The notes under the pieces were generated by a model. That model was not told the DNA's origin and ran no database searches. It was given only the letters and a program-made list of their open reading frames with translations. From contig CAYITV010000001.1 in NCBI GenBank assembly GCA_964366285.1, forward strand, positions 1-29,841: a stretch of DNA of 29,841 bases. Reading direction: 5' to 3'. Below are positions 15,010 to 21,244 of the stretch, piece by piece (positions within the stretch are counted from its first letter, which is position 1; each line of letters opens with the position of its first letter). The stretch is from Candidatus Woesearchaeota archaeon. GTDB taxonomy: Archaea > Nanobdellota > Nanobdellia > SCGC-AAA011-G17 > UBA489. The position numbers and the translations under genes are program-made.

Positions 15010-15136
15010 TTCTTCTTCTTTATTTCTTATTTTCTTTTCCATTATGCCATCCAAAGCGTCCTGAGATTTTTGTATTTTTAATTTAGCTTTTTAAGCGTGA
15101 TAAACCTTATAAAGAAGAGGCATTATCTCCAATGTT

Positions 15137-16096
15137 ATGGGGGAAATGCAGCAACTCTGGACTGAGAAATATCGGCCGCAGATGTTTTCTGAGATTGTCG
15201 GGCATAATGACATAATAAAAAGGGTTGAGGCATTTGTAAAACAGAAGAATGTTCCGCATCTCCTGCTTGCTGGAAGGGCTGGAATCGGAAAAACAACATT
15301 AGCAATGGTGATTGCTAAGGAATTATTTGGAGAGAACTGGAAAGAGAATTTTTTGGATTTGAACGCGAGCGATGATCGTGGGATAGACACCGTGAGAGTG
15401 AAGATAAAGGACTTTGCAAGAACGAAATCCATTGGAACAGATTTGCAGAAGATTGTGCATCTTGATGAATGCGATTCATTGACAAAAGAAGCGCAGCAGG
15501 CATTGAGAAGGACGATGGAGAATTATGCTGGAAATGCGAGATTCATCCTTAGCTGCAATGTGCAGAGCAAGATAATTGATCCAATCAAAAGCAGATGTGC
15601 TGTCTTCAGATTCAAGCCGTTGGAAAGAAAGGACATGGTTGAGATCATAGAAAGGATTGCCAAGGCTGAAAAACTGCAGATTGCTGAAAAGACAATAGAT
15701 GCATTGTATGAAGTATGCGAGGGCGACATGCGAAGGATGGTAAACATGCTGCAGAGCTGCGCTGCACTTGACAAGAAGATAACCGAAGATGCCGTTTATG
15801 AGCTTGCAGGGGCTGTGAAACCGAAGGAGATAAAGGATGCGTTGCTGATTGCCTTGAAGGGAGATTTTCTCAATGCAAGGGAGAAGTTATTAGATGTGAT
15901 GCTGGCGCATGGGATGGGGGGGCTAGATGTTGTAAAACAAATTCAAAAAGAGATCTGGGAGCTGCCAATAAGCGATGTTGAAAGGGTAAGATTGATTGAA
16001 AGATGCGGAGAGATAGAATTCAGAATGGTGGAAGGAAGCGATGACTGGATTCAACTGGAAGGATTATTATCAAGCTTTGTGCTGATGAAAAAATGA
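15137..16096 (+). CDS. rfcS: Replication factor C small subunit (no intein)
   Basis: WTEKYRP, GRAGIGKTT, LNASDDRG, DECDSLT..AQQALRR and SRC motifs. Confidence 0.96.
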   Translation: MGEMQQLWTEKYRPQMFSEIVGHNDIIKRVEAFVKQKNVPHLLLAGRAGIGKTTLAMVIAKELFGENWKENFLDLNASDDRGIDTVRVKIKDFARTKSIGTDLQKIVHLDECDSLTKEAQQALRRTMENYAGNARFILSCNVQSKIIDPIKSRCAVFRFKPLERKDMVEIIERIAKAEKLQIAEKTIDALYEVCEGDMRRMVNMLQSCAALDKKITEDAVYELAGAVKPKEIKDALLIALKGDFLNAREKLLDVMLAHGMGGLDVVKQIQKEIWELPISDVERVRLIERCGEIEFRMVEGSDDWIQLEGLLSSFVLMKK

Positions 16097-17268
16097 AAAC
16101 GTGGGTGGACAAATATACTCCAAATAGCTTAAATGAAATTGCAGGACAAGACTTTGCAATATCTCAATTGAAGAATGTAATTGAAAGAAAAGGTGTTGCA
16201 CTACTACATGGAGCGCCTGGGACTGGAAAAACCTGTAGCGTCTATGCATTGGCAAATGATCTCGGCTATGAAGTTCTTGAGATAAATGCATCTGACTTCA
16301 GGAATGAAGAGAATATGCAGAGGATTGTCGGCGGATCCTTGCAGCAGGCAAGCTTGTTCAGCAAGGGGAAGATTGTATTGGTTGATGAGCTTGAGGGAAT
16401 TTCAGGACAGGAGGACAGGGGAGGAATATCTGAGTTAAATGGTTTGCTTGACAGCAAGACGCATGCTGTTGTGCTGATAACAAATGATCCATGGGACAAG
16501 AAGTTCTCCACATTGAGAAAGAAATGCACCTTGATAGAATACAAGAATGTCAATGCTGACAGCGTTGCAAAGGTTTTAAGACGCATATGTGAAAAAGAGG
16601 GGATAAACTTCCTGGAAGAGGACTTGAAGATTCTTGCAAGAAGATCTGGAGGAGATGTAAGGGCAGCTATAACAGATTTGCATGCATTATGCATCGGCAG
16701 GAATGAGCTTTCGAGGGAAGACTTTTCAATCTTGGGGGAAAGAGAGCAGGAGAAGAGTGTTTTTACTGCATTGCAGGTTATCCTGAAGGGCAAGGACAGT
16801 GGCAAAGCAATCCAAGTGATGGATGAGGTTGATGTTGATCTGTTTGACATGATGCTGTGGCTTGATGAGAATATTGGAAGGGAATACAAGGGAAAGGATT
16901 TGGAATCTGGATATGACATGCTTGGAAAAGCTGATGTTTTCAATGGAAGAATCAAAAGATGGCAGTACTGGAGATTTTTGGTTTATATGAAGGAGCTGAT
17001 GAGCGCTGGAGTATCTGCTGCAAAAGAGATGCAATACTATGGGTATACGCCTTACAAAAGGTATGATCGAATCTTGAAGATGTGGATGGCGAATCAAAAG
17101 TATAAGAGAAGGAAAGATATTGCTGCGAAGCTTGCATCGCACAGCCATGTCTCTTCAAAATATGCTGTCAGGCATGTTGTTCCTTATGTAAAAATGCTTT
17201 ACAAGAAAGGACAAGAAATAGATGCTAACTTTACAGATGAAGAGGTTGAGTGGCTGAAAGAAAAATAA
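16093..17268 (+). CDS. rfcL: Replication factor C large subunit
   Basis: WVDKYTP, GAPGTGKT, EINASDFR, DELEG and GDVRAAI motifs; ATGA overlap with rfcS. Confidence 0.93.
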   Translation: MKTWVDKYTPNSLNEIAGQDFAISQLKNVIERKGVALLHGAPGTGKTCSVYALANDLGYEVLEINASDFRNEENMQRIVGGSLQQASLFSKGKIVLVDELEGISGQEDRGGISELNGLLDSKTHAVVLITNDPWDKKFSTLRKKCTLIEYKNVNADSVAKVLRRICEKEGINFLEEDLKILARRSGGDVRAAITDLHALCIGRNELSREDFSILGEREQEKSVFTALQVILKGKDSGKAIQVMDEVDVDLFDMMLWLDENIGREYKGKDLESGYDMLGKADVFNGRIKRWQYWRFLVYMKELMSAGVSAAKEMQYYGYTPYKRYDRILKMWMANQKYKRRKDIAAKLASHSHVSSKYAVRHVVPYVKMLYKKGQEIDANFTDEEVEWLKEK

Positions 17269-17312
17269 AAACAATAGTTTTATAAATGCATTCTGGAAAA
17301 ACAAATTCTATT

Positions 17313-17603
17313 ATGAAGATTAGCGAGTTAAAACCAAGAATGGGAAAGATTGAGATTGAAGTTACTGTTGATGATGTTGGAGAGATAAGAGAATTTGACA
17401 AGTTTGGCAAGAAGGGAAGAGTCTGCAATGCAACTGTAAGCGATGATTCTGGAAAGATAAAACTAACATTATGGAATGATGAGATTGACAAGGTAAAGAA
17501 AGGCGACAAATTAAAGATTTCCAATGGTTATGTGAATGAATTCCAAGGCGAGATGCAGCTTACTGCCGGTAGATTTGGTAAGTTAGAGGTTGTTGCTTCC
17601 TAG
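17313..17603 (+). CDS. ssb: Single-OB-fold ssDNA-binding protein (SSB/RPA-type)
   Basis: MKISEL, V.NATVSDDSGKIKLTLWN, NGYVNEFQGEMQLTAGRFG. TATA (17278-17286) 26 nt before ATG 17313. Confidence 0.88.
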   Translation: MKISELKPRMGKIEIEVTVDDVGEIREFDKFGKKGRVCNATVSDDSGKIKLTLWNDEIDKVKKGDKLKISNGYVNEFQGEMQLTAGRFGKLEVVAS

Positions 17604-17606
17604 TTT

Positions 17607-18005
17607 TTATATACCTACTAACTCATGCGTGTGATAGACTTCAATAGTATTTTGCTCTTTCAATTTTTTATCATTGCTCCAGATGGCACATTTTATTTTT
17701 AGAGCCAATGCAAAATAAGCCATGTCATCTGGATCCGGGCTTATCAGCTCAGCCTTTTGAATGAATTCACGCAATTCTTCCAAAGGCACTAAGATAATTC
17801 TTTTTTTGAGAATATCTAATGCATTATCAAATTCTTCAATGGTCTTCTCTGTTTTTTCAAGAATTTCAGCTTTATGCTCCTCCAACTCTGAGAATATATA
17901 CTCCGGTGCAAAGAGATGAAGTTTTTCATTGAAAAAAAGCCGGTAACTTGCGTTGTCTTTTATCAAAGATGCAAAAAGAATATTAGCATCAACAACAAGA
18001 TCCAT
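17607..18005 (-). CDS. PIN-domain (VapC-like) toxin
   Basis: LVVDANILF, E in APEYIFSEL, DPDD and WSND acidic PIN motifs. Confidence 0.9.
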   Translation of the reverse strand: MDLVVDANILFASLIKDNASYRLFFNEKLHLFAPEYIFSELEEHKAEILEKTEKTIEEFDNALDILKKRIILVPLEELREFIQKAELISPDPDDMAYFALALKIKCAIWSNDKKLKEQNTIEVYHTHELVGI

Positions 18006-18006
18006 T

Positions 18007-18237
18007 TTATCGAGCTATTGCCCTCAATTTGCTGCTGATTTTTTTGCTTACTTCTTTTCCCAAGCGCAATGCATCTTCTTCAGTAAGTTTACTTTTTTGT
18101 TTAAATTTTCTTAAGAACTCCATGTCAGCTACTTTTTGCATAAATGCCTGCCTTGCTACTTCTGACCAATTTATTTCTTTTATAGAGTCCATTTTTTGCT
18201 TCAATTCATTTGGCACGGCCAGAGTCATAGTGGTCAT
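18007..18237 (-). CDS. Ribbon-helix-helix antitoxin
   Basis: MTTMTLAVPNELKQKM...INWSEVARQA; directly upstream of the PIN gene; SD GGAG. Confidence 0.85.
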   Translation of the reverse strand: MTTMTLAVPNELKQKMDSIKEINWSEVARQAFMQKVADMEFLRKFKQKSKLTEEDALRLGKEVSKKISSKLRAIAR

Positions 18238-18298
18238 ATTTCTTCTCCATTTATGTGTGTTTATTTATAATATGTGCTTATATATAAATCTTCTGATT

Positions 18299-18364
18299 AA
18301 TCAATTTCGAGGCGAGATGCAATTGATTGCTGGACGATTTGGTAAGTTAGAGGTTGTTTCTTAG
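18299..18364 (+). pseudogene. Orphan second copy of the ssb 3' end (NQFRGEMQLIAGRFGKLEVVS*)
   Basis: Aligns ungapped with 17535-17594 at an offset of 764 bp; 50/60 nt identical, including a 23-bp perfect core. Confidence 0.9.
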
Positions 18365-19209
18365 AACTTCATTGCTTTTAATCTTTGAATTCTTTCTTGA
18401 AGAGGAGGATGACTTGAGAATAAATTGACCAGCCCCTGACCACTGATGGGTTTGACTATGAAGAGGTGACTTGTTGAGGGAGTGGCAAAGGTTAAAGGGA
18501 TGTGTTTTGAAGCATTATCAAGTTTTTGAAGTGCACTTGCGAGAGGCAATGGATTTTTAATTAGCCGAGCGCCGCGCTCGTCTGCCAAGTATTCTCTGCT
18601 GCGCGAGATTGCTAGTTGAATAATCATAGCTGCAAGAGGAGCAATAATAGCCATGAACAATAATCCTAATGGATTTCCTCCCCGATTATCGTTTCTGCCC
18701 CCACCAAAAATAACTGCAAAGCGAGCCATGAATGCCAGATAAGAGATTACTGATGCGATTGTGGCTGCTATTGTGGATATCAAAATATCCCTGTTCTTTA
18801 CATGGCCTATTTCATGAGCTAACACGCCTTTCAATTCTTCTTTTGTCAATAATTTCAGTATTCCTTCTGTGACTGCGACAACTGCTTTTTTTGGCGAAGG
18901 GCCTGTTGCAAAGGCATTAGCGTGTGGAGAGGGTATAAGGTAGACCTTTGGTTTAGGAAGATTGGCTTGTCTGCAGATGTCTTCGACCATCTTATGGACT
19001 TCCGGCGCCTTATTCTTTGGCAATTCTTTAGCGTGGTACATCATCAAGACTAATTTGTGTGAGAAGAAGTAGGTTCCGAAGTTCATTAAGACGGCAAATA
19101 TGAGAGCAATTGTCAATCCCTGCTGTCCGCCTATAAACGCTCCTATCAATAACAGAAGTCCTGAAAGGATTCCCAGTAGTAAAGCTGTTTTTAACTGGTT
19201 GAGTATCAT
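18361..19209 (-). CDS. htpX: HtpX family M48 zinc metalloprotease
   Basis: NAFATG, HEIGH, SRSREYLADE and FSSHPP motifs plus TM helices. Confidence 0.95.
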   Translation of the reverse strand: MILNQLKTALLLGILSGLLLLIGAFIGGQQGLTIALIFAVLMNFGTYFFSHKLVLMMYHAKELPKNKAPEVHKMVEDICRQANLPKPKVYLIPSPHANAFATGPSPKKAVVAVTEGILKLLTKEELKGVLAHEIGHVKNRDILISTIAATIASVISYLAFMARFAVIFGGGRNDNRGGNPLGLLFMAIIAPLAAMIIQLAISRSREYLADERGARLIKNPLPLASALQKLDNASKHIPLTFATPSTSHLFIVKPISGQGLVNLFSSHPPLQERIQRLKAMKF

Positions 19210-19231
19210 CAACTAGGCTTTAGAACGAAAG

Positions 19232-19239
19232 TTTAAATA
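19232..19239. promoter_or_regulatory. Single TATA element (TTTAAATA) centred between the divergent htpX and sigma genes
   Basis: TTTAAA lies 22 nt from the htpX ATG and 24 nt from the sigma ATG. Confidence 0.5.
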
Positions 19240-19261
19240 GTTTGCGGAGTAGTTATTTTTC

Positions 19262-20074
19262 ATGGATTTTAAAGCAAGAGGCAGGGTAAATGGTCTTTCA
19301 ATTGATCAGGAACAGAATCTTGTTTGTTTAGCACTGAAAGGCGATGCTGAATCGCGGGACTCACTGCTTCTTTCATATCGCAGGATTATCCACAGGGAAG
19401 CGCGACGATATGCCATCTATGCAGAAAGATCTGATTTAGAACAAGAGGGAATGATTGGCGTTTGCGAGGCTTTCGAGAATTATGACCCTTCATTTGGGGT
19501 GCCATTTAGGCACTATGTTTTTTATTGGATACGAAAAGCGATGATGGAGGCAACTGCAATGAACAGGTCAATACGATTGCCTAATGATCAGGTTGAATTA
19601 AGAATAAAGCTACACAGCATAGAAATCACACATTATAATGCCCATGGAAAACAACCCACGACGGAAGATTATGGATCTTTACTCGCTTCGAAAGCCGGGC
19701 CGCGCTTCTCGCCGCAAAGCATTGCAAGATCTATTGCAAATTATTCGCAATACATGCTTTCCCTTGACAGAAAACTTGATGAGGATTCAAAATTGACTAT
19801 TGGCGCATACTTTGCAGTTCCAGATGGTGATCCGTCTAATTATGCCGTGCTCTCTGAAATAAAAGAAAGGGTTTCAAGGGCATTAAAGTTTTTGTCGCGA
19901 TGGGAAAAAACAGTAATCCAAAAATATTTTGGGCTGGATGATGAAAAAGGGCTAACTTTAGAAGCTATTGCAAAGCTGGCTGGAACGCAAAAACAAAATG
20001 CACACAACGCAAAACGAAATGCATTGAAGAAGCTACGCATGTACGGCAGACTAGAAGATTATGTTTTGGAATAG
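19262..20074 (+). CDS. Sigma-70 family factor homolog (regions 1.2-4)
   Basis: EQNL..LALKGD..SRDSL (1.2), DLEQEGMIG..EAFENYDP..G..F..Y..YWIRKAM (2), RSIRLP, LSLD (3), LSRWEKTVIQKYFGL...TLEAIA (4). Confidence 0.9.
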   Translation: MDFKARGRVNGLSIDQEQNLVCLALKGDAESRDSLLLSYRRIIHREARRYAIYAERSDLEQEGMIGVCEAFENYDPSFGVPFRHYVFYWIRKAMMEATAMNRSIRLPNDQVELRIKLHSIEITHYNAHGKQPTTEDYGSLLASKAGPRFSPQSIARSIANYSQYMLSLDRKLDEDSKLTIGAYFAVPDGDPSNYAVLSEIKERVSRALKFLSRWEKTVIQKYFGLDDEKGLTLEAIAKLAGTQKQNAHNAKRNALKKLRMYGRLEDYVLE

Positions 20075-20082
20075 AAAGCATA

Positions 20083-20409
20083 TCACGAAACTATGACCTT
20101 CTTTGCCTTAGGCATCTCTTTTGGAACCTGCTCAGAAATCTTCTGGAGCTCGTAAGCGATCCAGGCCATCACAACTGCAGGATGCATCTGCTGAAGCTTG
20201 AAAAGAATTATATCCCTTATTTTCGCTGTTGTAACCTCATCAAAGCTATTAACATACTGGAGCAGGTCATAGGTGGTTTCTTCTATGATTGTATGCTTGA
20301 GGTATTCAGGGACACGGGCGTCCTTGACTGCTCTTGCGAGAGATCGCTTTAGTTTATTCCTGCTGAATTTTTCTCTCTTTCCGCTTTTCTTGATGACCTT
20401 CTTTTGCAT
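20083..20409 (-). CDS. Stand-alone ATP-cone domain protein
   Basis: KVIKKSGKREKFSRNKLKRSL...VTTAKIRDII. Confidence 0.8.
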   Translation of the reverse strand: MQKKVIKKSGKREKFSRNKLKRSLARAVKDARVPEYLKHTIIEETTYDLLQYVNSFDEVTTAKIRDIILFKLQQMHPAVVMAWIAYELQKISEQVPKEMPKAKKVIVS

Positions 20410-20503
20410 GATAAATCACTGCTGAAACAGGTATATATTTCTTTTCATCGTGTTTTTTTATCGGTGCGTTATTCTTAAATAGATGCTGATCATAAAAAAA
20501 GGC

Positions 20504-21244
20504 ATGACGCGCGTTCTTGTAGGATGCCCGACGTATGAAGGCTATAGATATTGCTTGAAGGAATATGCTGAAAGAGTGAAGGCACTTACCTACCATGATT
20601 ATGATATTGTGCTGGCTGACAATTCAAAAGGGAATGATTATGCCCATGAAATAAAACTGCATGACATTGAGGTTATACGCGAAAGGCATCTACAAAGCAT
20701 ATATGAAAGGATTGTTGAAAGCAGGAATCTGTTAAGGGAAAGAATGCTGAAGGGGAAATATGACTACTTTTTGAGCTTGGAGCAGGATGTGATACCACCT
20801 GTCGATATAATAGAGAAACTGATCAGGCATGGGAAGGATGTTGTTTCTGGTATTTATTATAAGTTATATAACGTGAATGTCAGGGGGAAGGATGGAATTG
20901 TTAGGCAGAAAAAAACATTGTTACCATTGATTTTCATGCCTTCTAATGACAAAGACAAGATGCATGTATGCTATCCCAAAGACGTTGAAGGAGAGCAGTT
21001 TTTCAAGATAAGGGCATGCGGATTGGGATGCGTACTTATTGGCAAGGAAGTTCTTGAGAAAGTTAAGTTTAGGTATGATCCTACAAAAAGCACTTTTGAT
21101 GACTTCTTGTTCTGCACTGATGTTATTGAGAAAGGATTTGAGATTTATGCTGACACGAGCGTGAAATGCAAACATTTGTTTTTGCAGAAGGGGGATGTAT
21201 TTAAAGATATGAAGAAAGAAGAAGCCGAAAATAGCGATAGTTAA
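20504..21244 (+). CDS. Glycosyltransferase family 2
   Basis: VLVGCPTY, LADNS, SRNLLR, LEQD (DxD-like), CGLGCVLI and DDFLFC motifs. Confidence 0.85.
   Translation: MTRVLVGCPTYEGYRYCLKEYAERVKALTYHDYDIVLADNSKGNDYAHEIKLHDIEVIRERHLQSIYERIVESRNLLRERMLKGKYDYFLSLEQDVIPPVDIIEKLIRHGKDVVSGIYYKLYNVNVRGKDGIVRQKKTLLPLIFMPSNDKDKMHVCYPKDVEGEQFFKIRACGLGCVLIGKEVLEKVKFRYDPTKSTFDDFLFCTDVIEKGFEIYADTSVKCKHLFLQKGDVFKDMKKEEAENSDS

What the first reader, a model, noticed from the sequence alone, without database searches (positions are those of the whole stretch)
19262..20074. Complete multi-region sigma70 homolog embedded in an archaeal chromosome
Seen: regions 1.2, 2, 3 and 4 are intact among clearly archaeal genes. 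The promoter-reading segments are altered relative to RpoD-type consensus: FRHYVFYWIRKAM for FSTYATWWIRQAI, and TQKQNAHNAK for TRERIRQIE. Established: archaeal RNAP initiates with TBP/TFB, not sigma; sigma-like genes have been noted in some DPANN genomes, with function unresolved. Inference: a repurposed DNA-binding regulator, an RNAP clamp binder, or an effector aimed at a bacterial partner's RNAP (compare the SLT gene).
Basis: partly seen in the sequence, partly recalled or inferred. Interest (0 to 1): 0.75.

Follow-up and report, generated by a model that had tools for sequence, protein, structure and literature searches.

The report
Divergent sigma-factor gene in DPANN archaeon
A tiny groundwater (DPANN-type) archaeon really does carry an intact bacterial-style sigma-factor gene driven by an archaeal promoter, but such genes were reported in these archaea in 2021 and this dispensable, fast-evolving copy does not show what they do beside an archaeal RNA polymerase.

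Summary
Observation confirmed. Window 19262-20074 (+) encodes a 270-aa sigma-70-family protein, collinear with B. subtilis SigA from region 1.2 to 4.2. The AF2 model is confident (pLDDT 87.8).

- **Context:** the neighbours are archaeal (MCM with inteins, TBP, RFC, FEN1). Independently assembled contigs bridge both junctions, so it is not a chimera. The genome has one archaeal RNAP and no bacterial one.
- **Not new in kind:** Castelle et al. 2021 (PMC8204110) reported sigma-70 genes in DPANN. Here 107 of 196 genomes of the order carry a sigma r2 domain, and this genome has three sigma genes. This scan has noted such genes in at least 22 other genomes.
- **Specific to this copy:**
  - It is an accessory gene. 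It lies in a 1.27-kb indel absent from a congener, directly behind a native BRE/TATA promoter.
  - It is a long-branch orphan, at most 36% identical to any full-length protein.
  - It has replaced the -35 and -12 reading residues that most other DPANN sigmas keep.
  - A poor 120-codon comparison gives dN/dS 0.20.
- **Function:** undetermined. My best guess is a gene-specific regulator acting inside the archaeon. A co-fold with the archaeal RNAP clamp gave no verdict.

The parts
19262..20074 (+). Sigma-70-family CDS, 270 aa, including the stop codon
   Evidence: ORF. Pfam r2 and r4 and NCBIfam models. PDB SigA alignment. AF2 model and Foldseek.
19227..19238 (+). BRE/TATA-like element AAAGTTTAAATA. 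The TATA starts 30 nt before the ATG, which suggests a leaderless mRNA. It is shared with the divergent HtpX gene.
   Evidence: Sequence. TBP has a TATA at -28 and gene 1773-2189 has one at -30. The element is orthologous to the promoter that drives GT in congener G002: the blastn HSP runs to window 19247, and 24 of 34 positions match with identical spacing to the ATG.
19262..19366 (+). Region 1.2 (aa 1-35), missing about its first 5 residues. No region 1.1.
   Evidence: Aligned to SigA 106-138. Helices 3-7 and 14-25 in the model.
19367..19561 (+). Sigma2 domain (aa 36-100). Region 2.2 is DLEQEGMIGV. Regions 2.3/2.4 are FRHYVFYWIRKAM.
   Evidence: PF04542 at residues 37-96. Comparison with DPANN and bacterial sigmas.
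19574..19831 (+). Sigma3 domain (aa 105-165) and the region 3.2 linker or 'finger' (aa 166-190, LDRKLDEDSKLTIGAYF)
   Evidence: Collinear with SigA 208-300. Helices 108-161. Not detected by Pfam's r3 model.
19832..20050 (+). Sigma4 domain (aa 191-263). The 4.2 recognition helix is TQKQNAHNAKRNAL where the canonical sequence is TRERIRQIEAKAL.
   Evidence: PF04545 at residues 207-259. Alignment. pLDDT 93-98.
19248..20518 (.). 1.27-kb segment holding sigma, the convergent ATP-cone gene and GT's present promoter. It is replaced by 29 bp in congener G002.
   Evidence: blastn HSPs: window 18361-19247 matches L026 5053-5940, and window 20519-24980 matches L026 5970-10421. G002 gene order is HtpX, GT, HerA.
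20083..20409 (-). Stand-alone ATP-cone gene (108 aa), convergent with sigma with 8 nt between the stop codons. It lies inside the same indel but is not a conserved partner.
   Evidence: PF03477. Its G002 ortholog (65% identity) and G142 ortholog (59%) sit elsewhere with no sigma nearby.

Best explanation
**Shown**
- This is a genuine, intact sigma-70-family gene with the architecture sigma1.2-sigma2-sigma3-sigma3.2-sigma4 and no sigma1.1.
- It is encoded in the chromosome of a small DPANN archaeon (816 kb, 90% complete) of an order where such genes are common.
- It is one of three sigma-family genes in this genome.
- It sits directly behind a native archaeal BRE/TATA promoter.
- It is an accessory gene within its genus.
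- It is a very long branch whose -35 and -12 reading residues have been replaced.

**Inferred**
- The gene is transcribed by the archaeon's own TBP/TFB/RNAP as a leaderless mRNA.
- It is kept by selection.
- It works inside the archaeon as a gene-specific transcription regulator that reads a non-canonical DNA motif through its sigma4 helix-turn-helix, possibly with sigma2.
- It is not a general initiation factor.

I put the identity and archaeal residence at above 0.9. I put this mechanism at about 0.4. Whether the protein also touches the archaeal RNAP is open; see rival 1.
For: **Identity and fold:**

**Archaeal residence**
- Neighbouring genes are archaeal.
- Junctions are bridged by independent contigs.
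- The flanks are syntenic with a 96%-complete congener at 79-82% protein identity.
- Composition and synonymous codon usage fall within the range of neighbouring genes: GC 0.415, log-likelihood -1.155 per codon against a range of -1.007 to -1.195.
- The genome has one archaeal rpo2-rpo1N operon and no bacterial alpha-CTD above the cut-off.

**Promoter**
- AAAGTTTAAATA lies with its TATA at -30, as for TBP and another gene in the window.
- It is orthologous to the promoter that drives the glycosyltransferase in G002.

**Constraint**
- Nei-Gojobori over 120 codons against the only close relative gives dN 0.056, dS 0.277, ratio 0.20.
- The frame is intact and all domains fold confidently.

**Changed specificity** (E. 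coli numbering from memory)
- R584K, E585Q, R586N, R588H, Q589N, Q437K and T440M.
- Most DPANN-order sigmas aligned keep LTRER(I/V)RQI and YA(V/T)WWIRQ.

**Family setting:** sigma r2 occurs in 107 of 196 genomes of the order, and sigma genes in DPANN are published.
Against: - There is no RNA, protein or binding data of any kind.
- The dN/dS rests on one 690-bp contig at 0.74x coverage. That contig also carries a 1-nt deletion and an unrelated left half.
- A plain DNA-binding regulator would need only sigma4. Retention of sigma2, sigma3 and the 3.2 finger, and constraint measured mainly across sigma3 and 3.2, argues that contact with an RNA polymerase still matters.
- Region 2.2 keeps D, Q and E of the DLIQEG core-binding motif, and the melting aromatics F, Y and W are largely kept.
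- The long branch (2.13 substitutions per site), the dispensability and the near-absence from 15 billion proteins also fit decay or a transient passenger gene.
Confidence: 0.4

Rival explanations
1. RNAP-docking factor. The protein binds the archaeon's own RNA polymerase, with sigma2 on the universally conserved clamp coiled-coil of Rpo1N. It then either recruits the polymerase to special promoters or competes with TFE and Spt4/5 there.
For: - The whole multi-domain scaffold, including the 3.2 finger, is retained and folds confidently.
- Region 2.2 keeps D, Q and E, and the melting aromatics are largely kept.
- The constraint estimate covers sigma3 and 3.2, which have no known role away from a polymerase.
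- The only RNAP in the genome is archaeal.
- The Rpo1N coiled-coil is invariant across the order. From general knowledge it resembles the bacterial beta' coiled-coil.
Against: - No archaeal RNAP has been shown to bind a sigma.
- N409 of the core-binding motif is replaced by M in this copy.
- The clamp coiled-coil is identical in all 29 order genomes aligned, and that sample includes genomes with no sigma r2 match, so there is no sign of co-adaptation.
- An earlier check in this scan priced the same claim for another genome at 8 in 100. That is an AI note, not evidence.
Confidence: 0.17
2. Passenger of the mobile or viral gene pool. The gene was brought in by, or serves, a virus or mobile element of DPANN archaea. 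It is only transiently resident and has no role in host regulation.
For: - It lies in a 1.27-kb indel, in a 5-kb stretch with three indels between congeners, next to a PIN/antitoxin cassette.
- No ortholog was found at E <= 1e-8 in 24 genomes of its own family.
- The full-length hit with the highest tree-alignment identity (P0009) and a loose tree neighbour (P0025) sit on contigs of tightly packed co-directional ORFs without Pfam hits, which looks virus-like.
- The match to phrog_351 (sigma factor) is 1e-39.
- rpoS-like genes were reported in DPANN viruses and a prophage (PMC12647753).
Against: - There is no integrase, capsid, terminase or repeat at the indel borders.
- The co-resident ATP-cone gene is a native gene of the genus (65% ortholog elsewhere in G002).
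- Composition is host-like.
- Phage genomes hold nothing closer than about 30% identity.
- The AU test does not reject membership in the main chromosomal DPANN sigma clade (p 0.48).
Confidence: 0.15
3. Decaying relic. This is a formerly functional DPANN sigma that has lost its promoter-reading residues and now drifts, still open by chance.
For: - Long terminal branch of 2.13.
- Canonical -35 and -12 residues are all replaced, while most relatives keep them.
- The gene is dispensable in the congener.
- The only close relative is a fragment with a frameshift.
Against: - An open 270-codon frame in a 40% GC genome.
- All domains are predicted with high confidence.
- dN/dS is 0.20 (weak data).
- A good promoter sits at the canonical distance.
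- The replaced residues are polar and basic (K, Q, N, H, N), as expected for a re-specified DNA-reading helix rather than random decay.
Confidence: 0.13
4. Effector against bacteria. The protein is delivered into a bacterial partner or prey, where it captures the bacterial core RNAP.
For: - I did not test this.
- The DPANN sigma family as a whole keeps bacterial-type core-binding, -10 and -35 residues.
Against: - This particular copy has lost the -35 and -12 reading residues.
- The N-terminus MDFKARGRVNGLSIDQEQ has no hydrophobic signal-like stretch.
- No secretion or delivery genes lie nearby.
- No DPANN archaeon with a bacterial host is known to me.
Confidence: 0.05

Closest known systems
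Sigma-70 genes of DPANN archaea (protein family fam00359; Castelle et al. 2021, Front Microbiol, PMC8204110)
   Same: - A sigma-70-family gene in a small DPANN genome of a lineage where such genes are prevalent, beside TBP, TFB and an archaeal RNAP.
- No anti-sigma factor is evident, and the function is unknown.
- The best full-length hit is a sigma of the same order: G112, 33% identity, identical to global hit P0003.
   Different: - This copy is a long-branch orphan.
- It is accessory within its genus.
- It has replaced the 4.2 and 2.4 recognition residues that most other sigmas of the order keep.
- Membership in fam00359 itself could not be tested, because that family is defined by the authors' own clustering.
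Bacterial group 1/2 sigma factors, e.g. B. subtilis SigA (PDB 7CKQ chain F), M. tuberculosis SigB, E. coli RpoS
   Same: - Collinear over regions 1.2, 2.1-2.4, 3.0, 3.2, 4.1 and 4.2, at about 30% identity.
- Same three-domain helical fold.
- Keeps D, Q and E of DLIQEG, the F, Y and W melting aromatics, and the acidic 3.2 finger.
   Different: - No region 1.1 or non-conserved region.
- Scores 91 bits against a 572-bit cut-off for the RpoD equivalog model, and equally far below every other equivalog.
- Substitutions: N409M, W433Y, Q437K, T440M, H455D, R584K, E585Q, R586N, R588H and Q589N (E. coli numbering from memory).
- It resides in a cell without a bacterial core enzyme.
rpoS-like genes of DPANN viruses and a prophage (Nat Commun 2025, PMC12647753)
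   Same: Divergent sigma homologs linked to DPANN. Two of this protein's nearer relatives lie on virus-like contigs.
   Different: The locus here has no viral genes. No sequence comparison with those viral genes was possible.

Membership tests
Sigma-70 family (Pfam Sigma70_r2 and r4; NCBIfam TIGR02937) | Sigma2 domain scoring above the Pfam gathering score | tested here: met
   PF04542 scores 42 bits against 24, at residues 37-96. It scores 44.4 bits in the genome search.
Sigma-70 family (Pfam Sigma70_r2 and r4; NCBIfam TIGR02937) | Sigma4 helix-turn-helix domain | tested here: met
   PF04545 scores 23.1 against 24.1 on the protein and 25.7 (over the cut-off) in the six-frame search. TIGR02937 scores 71.7 against 42.9 and spans residues 31-259. 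pLDDT is 93-98.
Sigma-70 family (Pfam Sigma70_r2 and r4; NCBIfam TIGR02937) | Binds the core RNA polymerase and directs promoter-specific initiation | not testable with these tools
   This needs biochemistry. The single co-fold attempt gave no verdict and is reported only under Tried and rejected.
Group 1 (primary) sigma factors, RpoD/SigA | Scores above the RpoD equivalog cut-offs, has region 1.1, and has canonical 2.4 and 4.2 recognition residues | tested here: not met
   NF006666 scores 91 against 572 and TIGR02393 scores 89.5 against 354. The frame opens only 3 codons before M1. The 4.2 and 2.4 residues are replaced.
Group 2/3 architecture (sigma1.2-2-3-4 without 1.1) | Sigma3 domain and 3.2 linker present between sigma2 and sigma4 | tested here: met
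   Collinear alignment to SigA, SigB and RpoS. Helices 108-161 plus a linker. Foldseek full-length matches. Pfam's r3 model itself does not fire.
DPANN sigma-70 family fam00359 (Castelle 2021) | Clusters with the sigma proteins of DPANN genomes | tested here: inconclusive
   The best-scoring full-length hit is a same-order DPANN sigma. The tree places the query on a 2.13 branch with no starred clade. The AU test does not reject it joining the main DPANN clade (p 0.478).

The most novel reading that the evidence does not exclude
The protein docks on the archaeon's own RNA polymerase clamp and, with its re-specified sigma4 and sigma2 surfaces, directs or blocks initiation at a private promoter class. 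That would be a working hybrid of bacterial sigma-type and archaeal TBP/TFB-type transcription initiation in one cell.
Probability: 0.1. Interest if true: 0.9.

Novelty: new member of a known kind. Interest (0 to 1): 0.33.

Why it matters
Sigma factors are the hallmark of bacterial transcription initiation, and archaea use TBP/TFB/TFE instead. Their presence in over half of the genomes sampled from one archaeal order is therefore a real open question. It was raised in print in 2021 and has not been answered.

This gene adds little to that question as such. It does offer a useful contrast case, because this copy has rewritten the DNA-reading residues that most other members of the order keep in canonical bacterial form. 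If the family is ever studied at the bench, comparing a canonical member with this copy could separate polymerase docking from promoter reading.

The locus also shows how such genes move. This one sits exactly between a native promoter and the gene that promoter used to drive.

Tried and rejected
1. **Co-fold.** Complex prediction with the genome's Rpo1N residues 1-447 (29-row alignment) and sigma residues 1-110 (60-row alignment) scored 0.00, and the controls were not run. This is no verdict, and no evidence for or against binding.
2. **RNA evidence.** No RNA holder was listed for the gene or the locus (one search was a machine error). This is no evidence on expression.
3. **Word-index protein search.** The search for homologous proteins found only the protein itself.
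4. **Taxonomically labelled search.** Bacterial or archaeal origin of the unlabelled representatives had to be judged from gene context on a few contigs. P0037 and P0039 were uninformative.
5. **Phage origin.** tblastn against 50,697 phage records gave at most about 30% identity, no closer than cellular sigmas.
6. **ATP-cone as a conserved partner or anti-sigma.** Rejected. Its orthologs in G002 and G142 lie elsewhere with no sigma nearby.
7. **Sigma-70-type promoter and terminator scan of the locus.** At the level of shuffled sequence: 4 found against 3.3 expected.
8. **Contig L018** (84% identical fragment). Only its right half matches. It is usable only for a rough dN/dS, not for synteny.
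9. **Genome-wide -35/-10 enrichment test.** Not run, because the recognition residues of this copy are non-canonical and its motif is unknown.

Full report
**What is there**

Window 19262-20074 (+) is a 270-codon ORF with only three further open codons upstream.
- It matches Pfam Sigma70_r2 at 42 bits (cut-off 24).
- It matches Sigma70_r4 at 23.1 bits on the protein, and at 25.7 bits (above the 24.1 cut-off) in the six-frame genome search.
- It matches the NCBIfam sigma-70 superfamily model TIGR02937 at 71.7 bits (cut-off 42.9).
- Full-length RpoD, SigB and RpoS models align residues 1-263 at about 1e-25, far below their equivalog cut-offs.
- Against PDB sequences the best match is B. subtilis SigA (7ckq_F, 5e-24). 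It is collinear from region 1.2 through 2.1-2.4, 3.0 and the 3.2 finger to 4.2.
- An AF2 model built on 60 relatives has mean pLDDT 87.8, with the expected helical sigma2, sigma3 and sigma4 domains. Foldseek aligns it to whole sigmaA and sigmaS chains at probability 1.0.

Pfam's r1_2 and r3 models do not fire. Region 1.2 lacks about its first five residues, and there is no region 1.1.

**It is in an archaeon and is not an assembly artefact**

- The window encodes MCM with two inteins, TBP, IleRS, RFC small and large subunits, HerA, Trm5/Tyw2 and FEN1.
- The genome (816 kb, 115 contigs, 90% complete) has a single Rpb1-type hit, in an archaeal rpo2-rpo1N operon. It has no bacterial alpha-CTD above the cut-off.
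- Contigs assembled independently from three groundwater metagenomes of one study bridge both junctions with no mismatch. One of these samples may be the source sample. The pieces are HtpX to the sigma 5' end (17928-19410) and the sigma 3' end through ATP-cone to the glycosyltransferase (19537-20653, 19689-20725, 19818-20534).
- A run from a second study holds an identical 211-bp piece of the gene.
- GC content (0.415) and synonymous codon usage lie within the range of the neighbouring genes.

**Promoter**

The 49-bp spacer before the ATG holds AAAGTTTAAATA. The TATA starts 30 nt before the start codon. TBP has a TATA at -28 and gene 1773-2189 has one at -30, which fits leaderless transcripts. 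The same box faces the divergent HtpX gene.

**Accessory status**

The same-genus genome G002 is 96% complete in 4 contigs, and its flanking proteins are 79-82% identical to those here. In G002 the order is HtpX, glycosyltransferase, HerA.
- blastn homology runs from HtpX to window position 19247, 15 nt before the sigma ATG. It resumes at 20519, inside the glycosyltransferase.
- So 1,271 bp in this genome correspond to 29 bp in G002.
- The promoter and leader that drive the glycosyltransferase in G002 are the ones now in front of sigma: 24 of 34 positions are identical, with the same spacing to the ATG.
- The ATP-cone gene that shares the indel is native to the genus. Its ortholog lies elsewhere in G002 and in G142 with no sigma nearby, so it is not a conserved partner.
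- No genome of the same family (0 of 24) has a match to this protein at E <= 1e-8.
- The surrounding 5 kb holds two more indels between the congeners, one of them a PIN/antitoxin cassette.

**How unusual the kind is**

Not very. Castelle et al. 2021 reported sigma-70 genes (fam00359) in DPANN, especially Woesearchaeota. They ruled out mis-binning, found no anti-sigma factors, and left the mechanism open.
- In this order, 107 of 196 genomes at least 80% complete carry a Sigma70_r2 match, and 60 of 107 high-quality genomes do.
- One strong hit (G059:C170) looks like a bacterial contaminant, so these counts are slightly inflated.
- This genome has two more sigma-family genes. One is a 167-aa ECF-like gene beside an intein-bearing TFB and ribosomal protein S8e. 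The other is a FliA-like gene near aIF2-gamma.
- This scan has already noted such genes in at least 22 other genomes.

**What is particular to this copy**

Among 1.84 billion cluster representatives there is one close relative. It is a 100-aa fragment at 84% identity on a 690-bp, 0.74x contig whose other half is unrelated. Everything else is at most 36% identical.

The best full-length hit (33-34%) is the third gene of a tandem sigma triplet in another family of the same order.

In a 106-row tree the query has a terminal branch of 2.13 substitutions per site and no well-supported clade. It groups loosely with unlabelled sequences. One of these (P0025), and also P0009, the row with the highest identity to the query in the tree alignment, lie on virus-like contigs. 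An AU test does not reject placing the query inside the main DPANN sigma clade (p 0.478). Its origin is therefore unresolved.

Most sigmas of the order keep DLI(S/Q)EGNLGL, F(I/S)(S/T)YA(V/T)WWIRQ and LTRER(I/V)RQI, which are the bacterial core-binding, melting/-10 and -35 residues. This copy instead reads DLEQEGMIGV, FRHYVFYWIRKAM and GTQKQNAHNAKRN.
- In E. coli numbering (from memory), D403, Q406, E407, F427, Y430, W434 and R436 are kept.
- N409M, W433Y, Q437K, T440M, H455D, R584K, E585Q, R586N, R588H and Q589N are changed.

A Nei-Gojobori estimate over the 120 codons alignable with the fragment gives dN 0.056, dS 0.277 and ratio 0.20. This suggests constraint, but the data are poor.

**Mechanism**

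Nothing here measures function.
- I commit to a gene-specific regulator acting inside the archaeon with re-specified DNA reading (about 0.4). The gene has a native archaeal promoter, an intact and confidently folded scaffold, apparent constraint, and polar or basic replacements on the recognition helix.
- The strongest objection is that sigma2, sigma3 and the 3.2 finger are retained. That makes sense mainly on a polymerase, so docking on the archaeal clamp is the main rival (0.17).
- The Rpo1N coiled-coil is invariant across the order and shows no co-adaptation.
- A mobile or viral passenger (0.15), a decaying relic (0.13) and an effector against bacteria (0.05) follow. This copy is the family member least fitted to read bacterial promoters, and it has no signal-like N-terminus.

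**Verdict**

This is a new member of a known kind and of moderate-to-low interest.

Noticed in passing
window 17286-18364: The OB-fold (ssb-like) gene at 17286-17603 is followed by a PIN/antitoxin pair (17607-18237) and a short duplicated copy of the OB-fold gene's 3' end (about 18300-18364). G002 has a 200-aa P-loop gene at this place instead. This matches the scan's own note e1-5300162.
   Followed up: partly
window 15089-20518 against L026 (G002:C1:498000-510000): There are three indels within about 5 kb between congeners. G002 has an extra 1.9 kb (a TrmB-like regulator and a 109-aa gene) after RFC. The two genomes have different cassettes before HtpX. The sigma/ATP-cone segment comes after HtpX. 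This is a local hot spot of gene turnover.
   Followed up: partly
G000:C78 (L001 1474-1977) and G000:C82 (L003 1012-2019, minus strand): The same genome has two more sigma-family genes. One is a 167-aa ECF-like gene between an intein-containing TFB and ribosomal protein S8e. The other is a FliA-like gene (335-aa ORF) between a 336-aa gene I did not identify and a Nudix gene, with aIF2-gamma beyond the Nudix gene. The G002 sigma at C1:161k is only 31% identical to the C82 copy.
   Followed up: partly
L059 (G112:C36), also L019 and L020: Three sigma genes lie in tandem (about 290-300 aa each) in another family of the order. Near-identical triplets appear in two ENA metagenome contigs, beside NIF3, cupredoxin and DoxX genes.
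   Followed up: no
L029/L062 (G059:C170, 1.9-kb contig): This sigma is 55-74% identical to long RpoD-like representatives, and one of those has a DnaG-RpoD context. It is probably a bacterial contaminant contig in that MAG, so order-wide sigma counts are slightly inflated.
   Followed up: partly
L085 and L086 (contigs carrying P0009 and P0025): These sigma genes sit at the end of runs of small, co-directional, tightly packed ORFs without Pfam hits. This looks virus- or mobile-element-like, and is possibly related to the rpoS-like genes reported in DPANN viruses (PMC12647753).
   Followed up: no
window 2921-8143 (minus strand): MCM is read as two ORFs (5258-8143 and 2921-5230). Each has intein-splicing and LAGLIDADG domains, and the break between the ORFs falls inside the second intein region.
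   Followed up: no
window 9-1154: A TnpB/Cas12f-like gene (OrfB_IS605 plus the TNB domain) lies at the window's left edge.
   Followed up: no
window 19209-19262: A single near-palindromic TATA box (TTTAAATA, 19231-19238) lies about 22-30 nt from the starts of both divergent genes, HtpX and sigma. This suggests a shared bidirectional promoter.
   Followed up: partly
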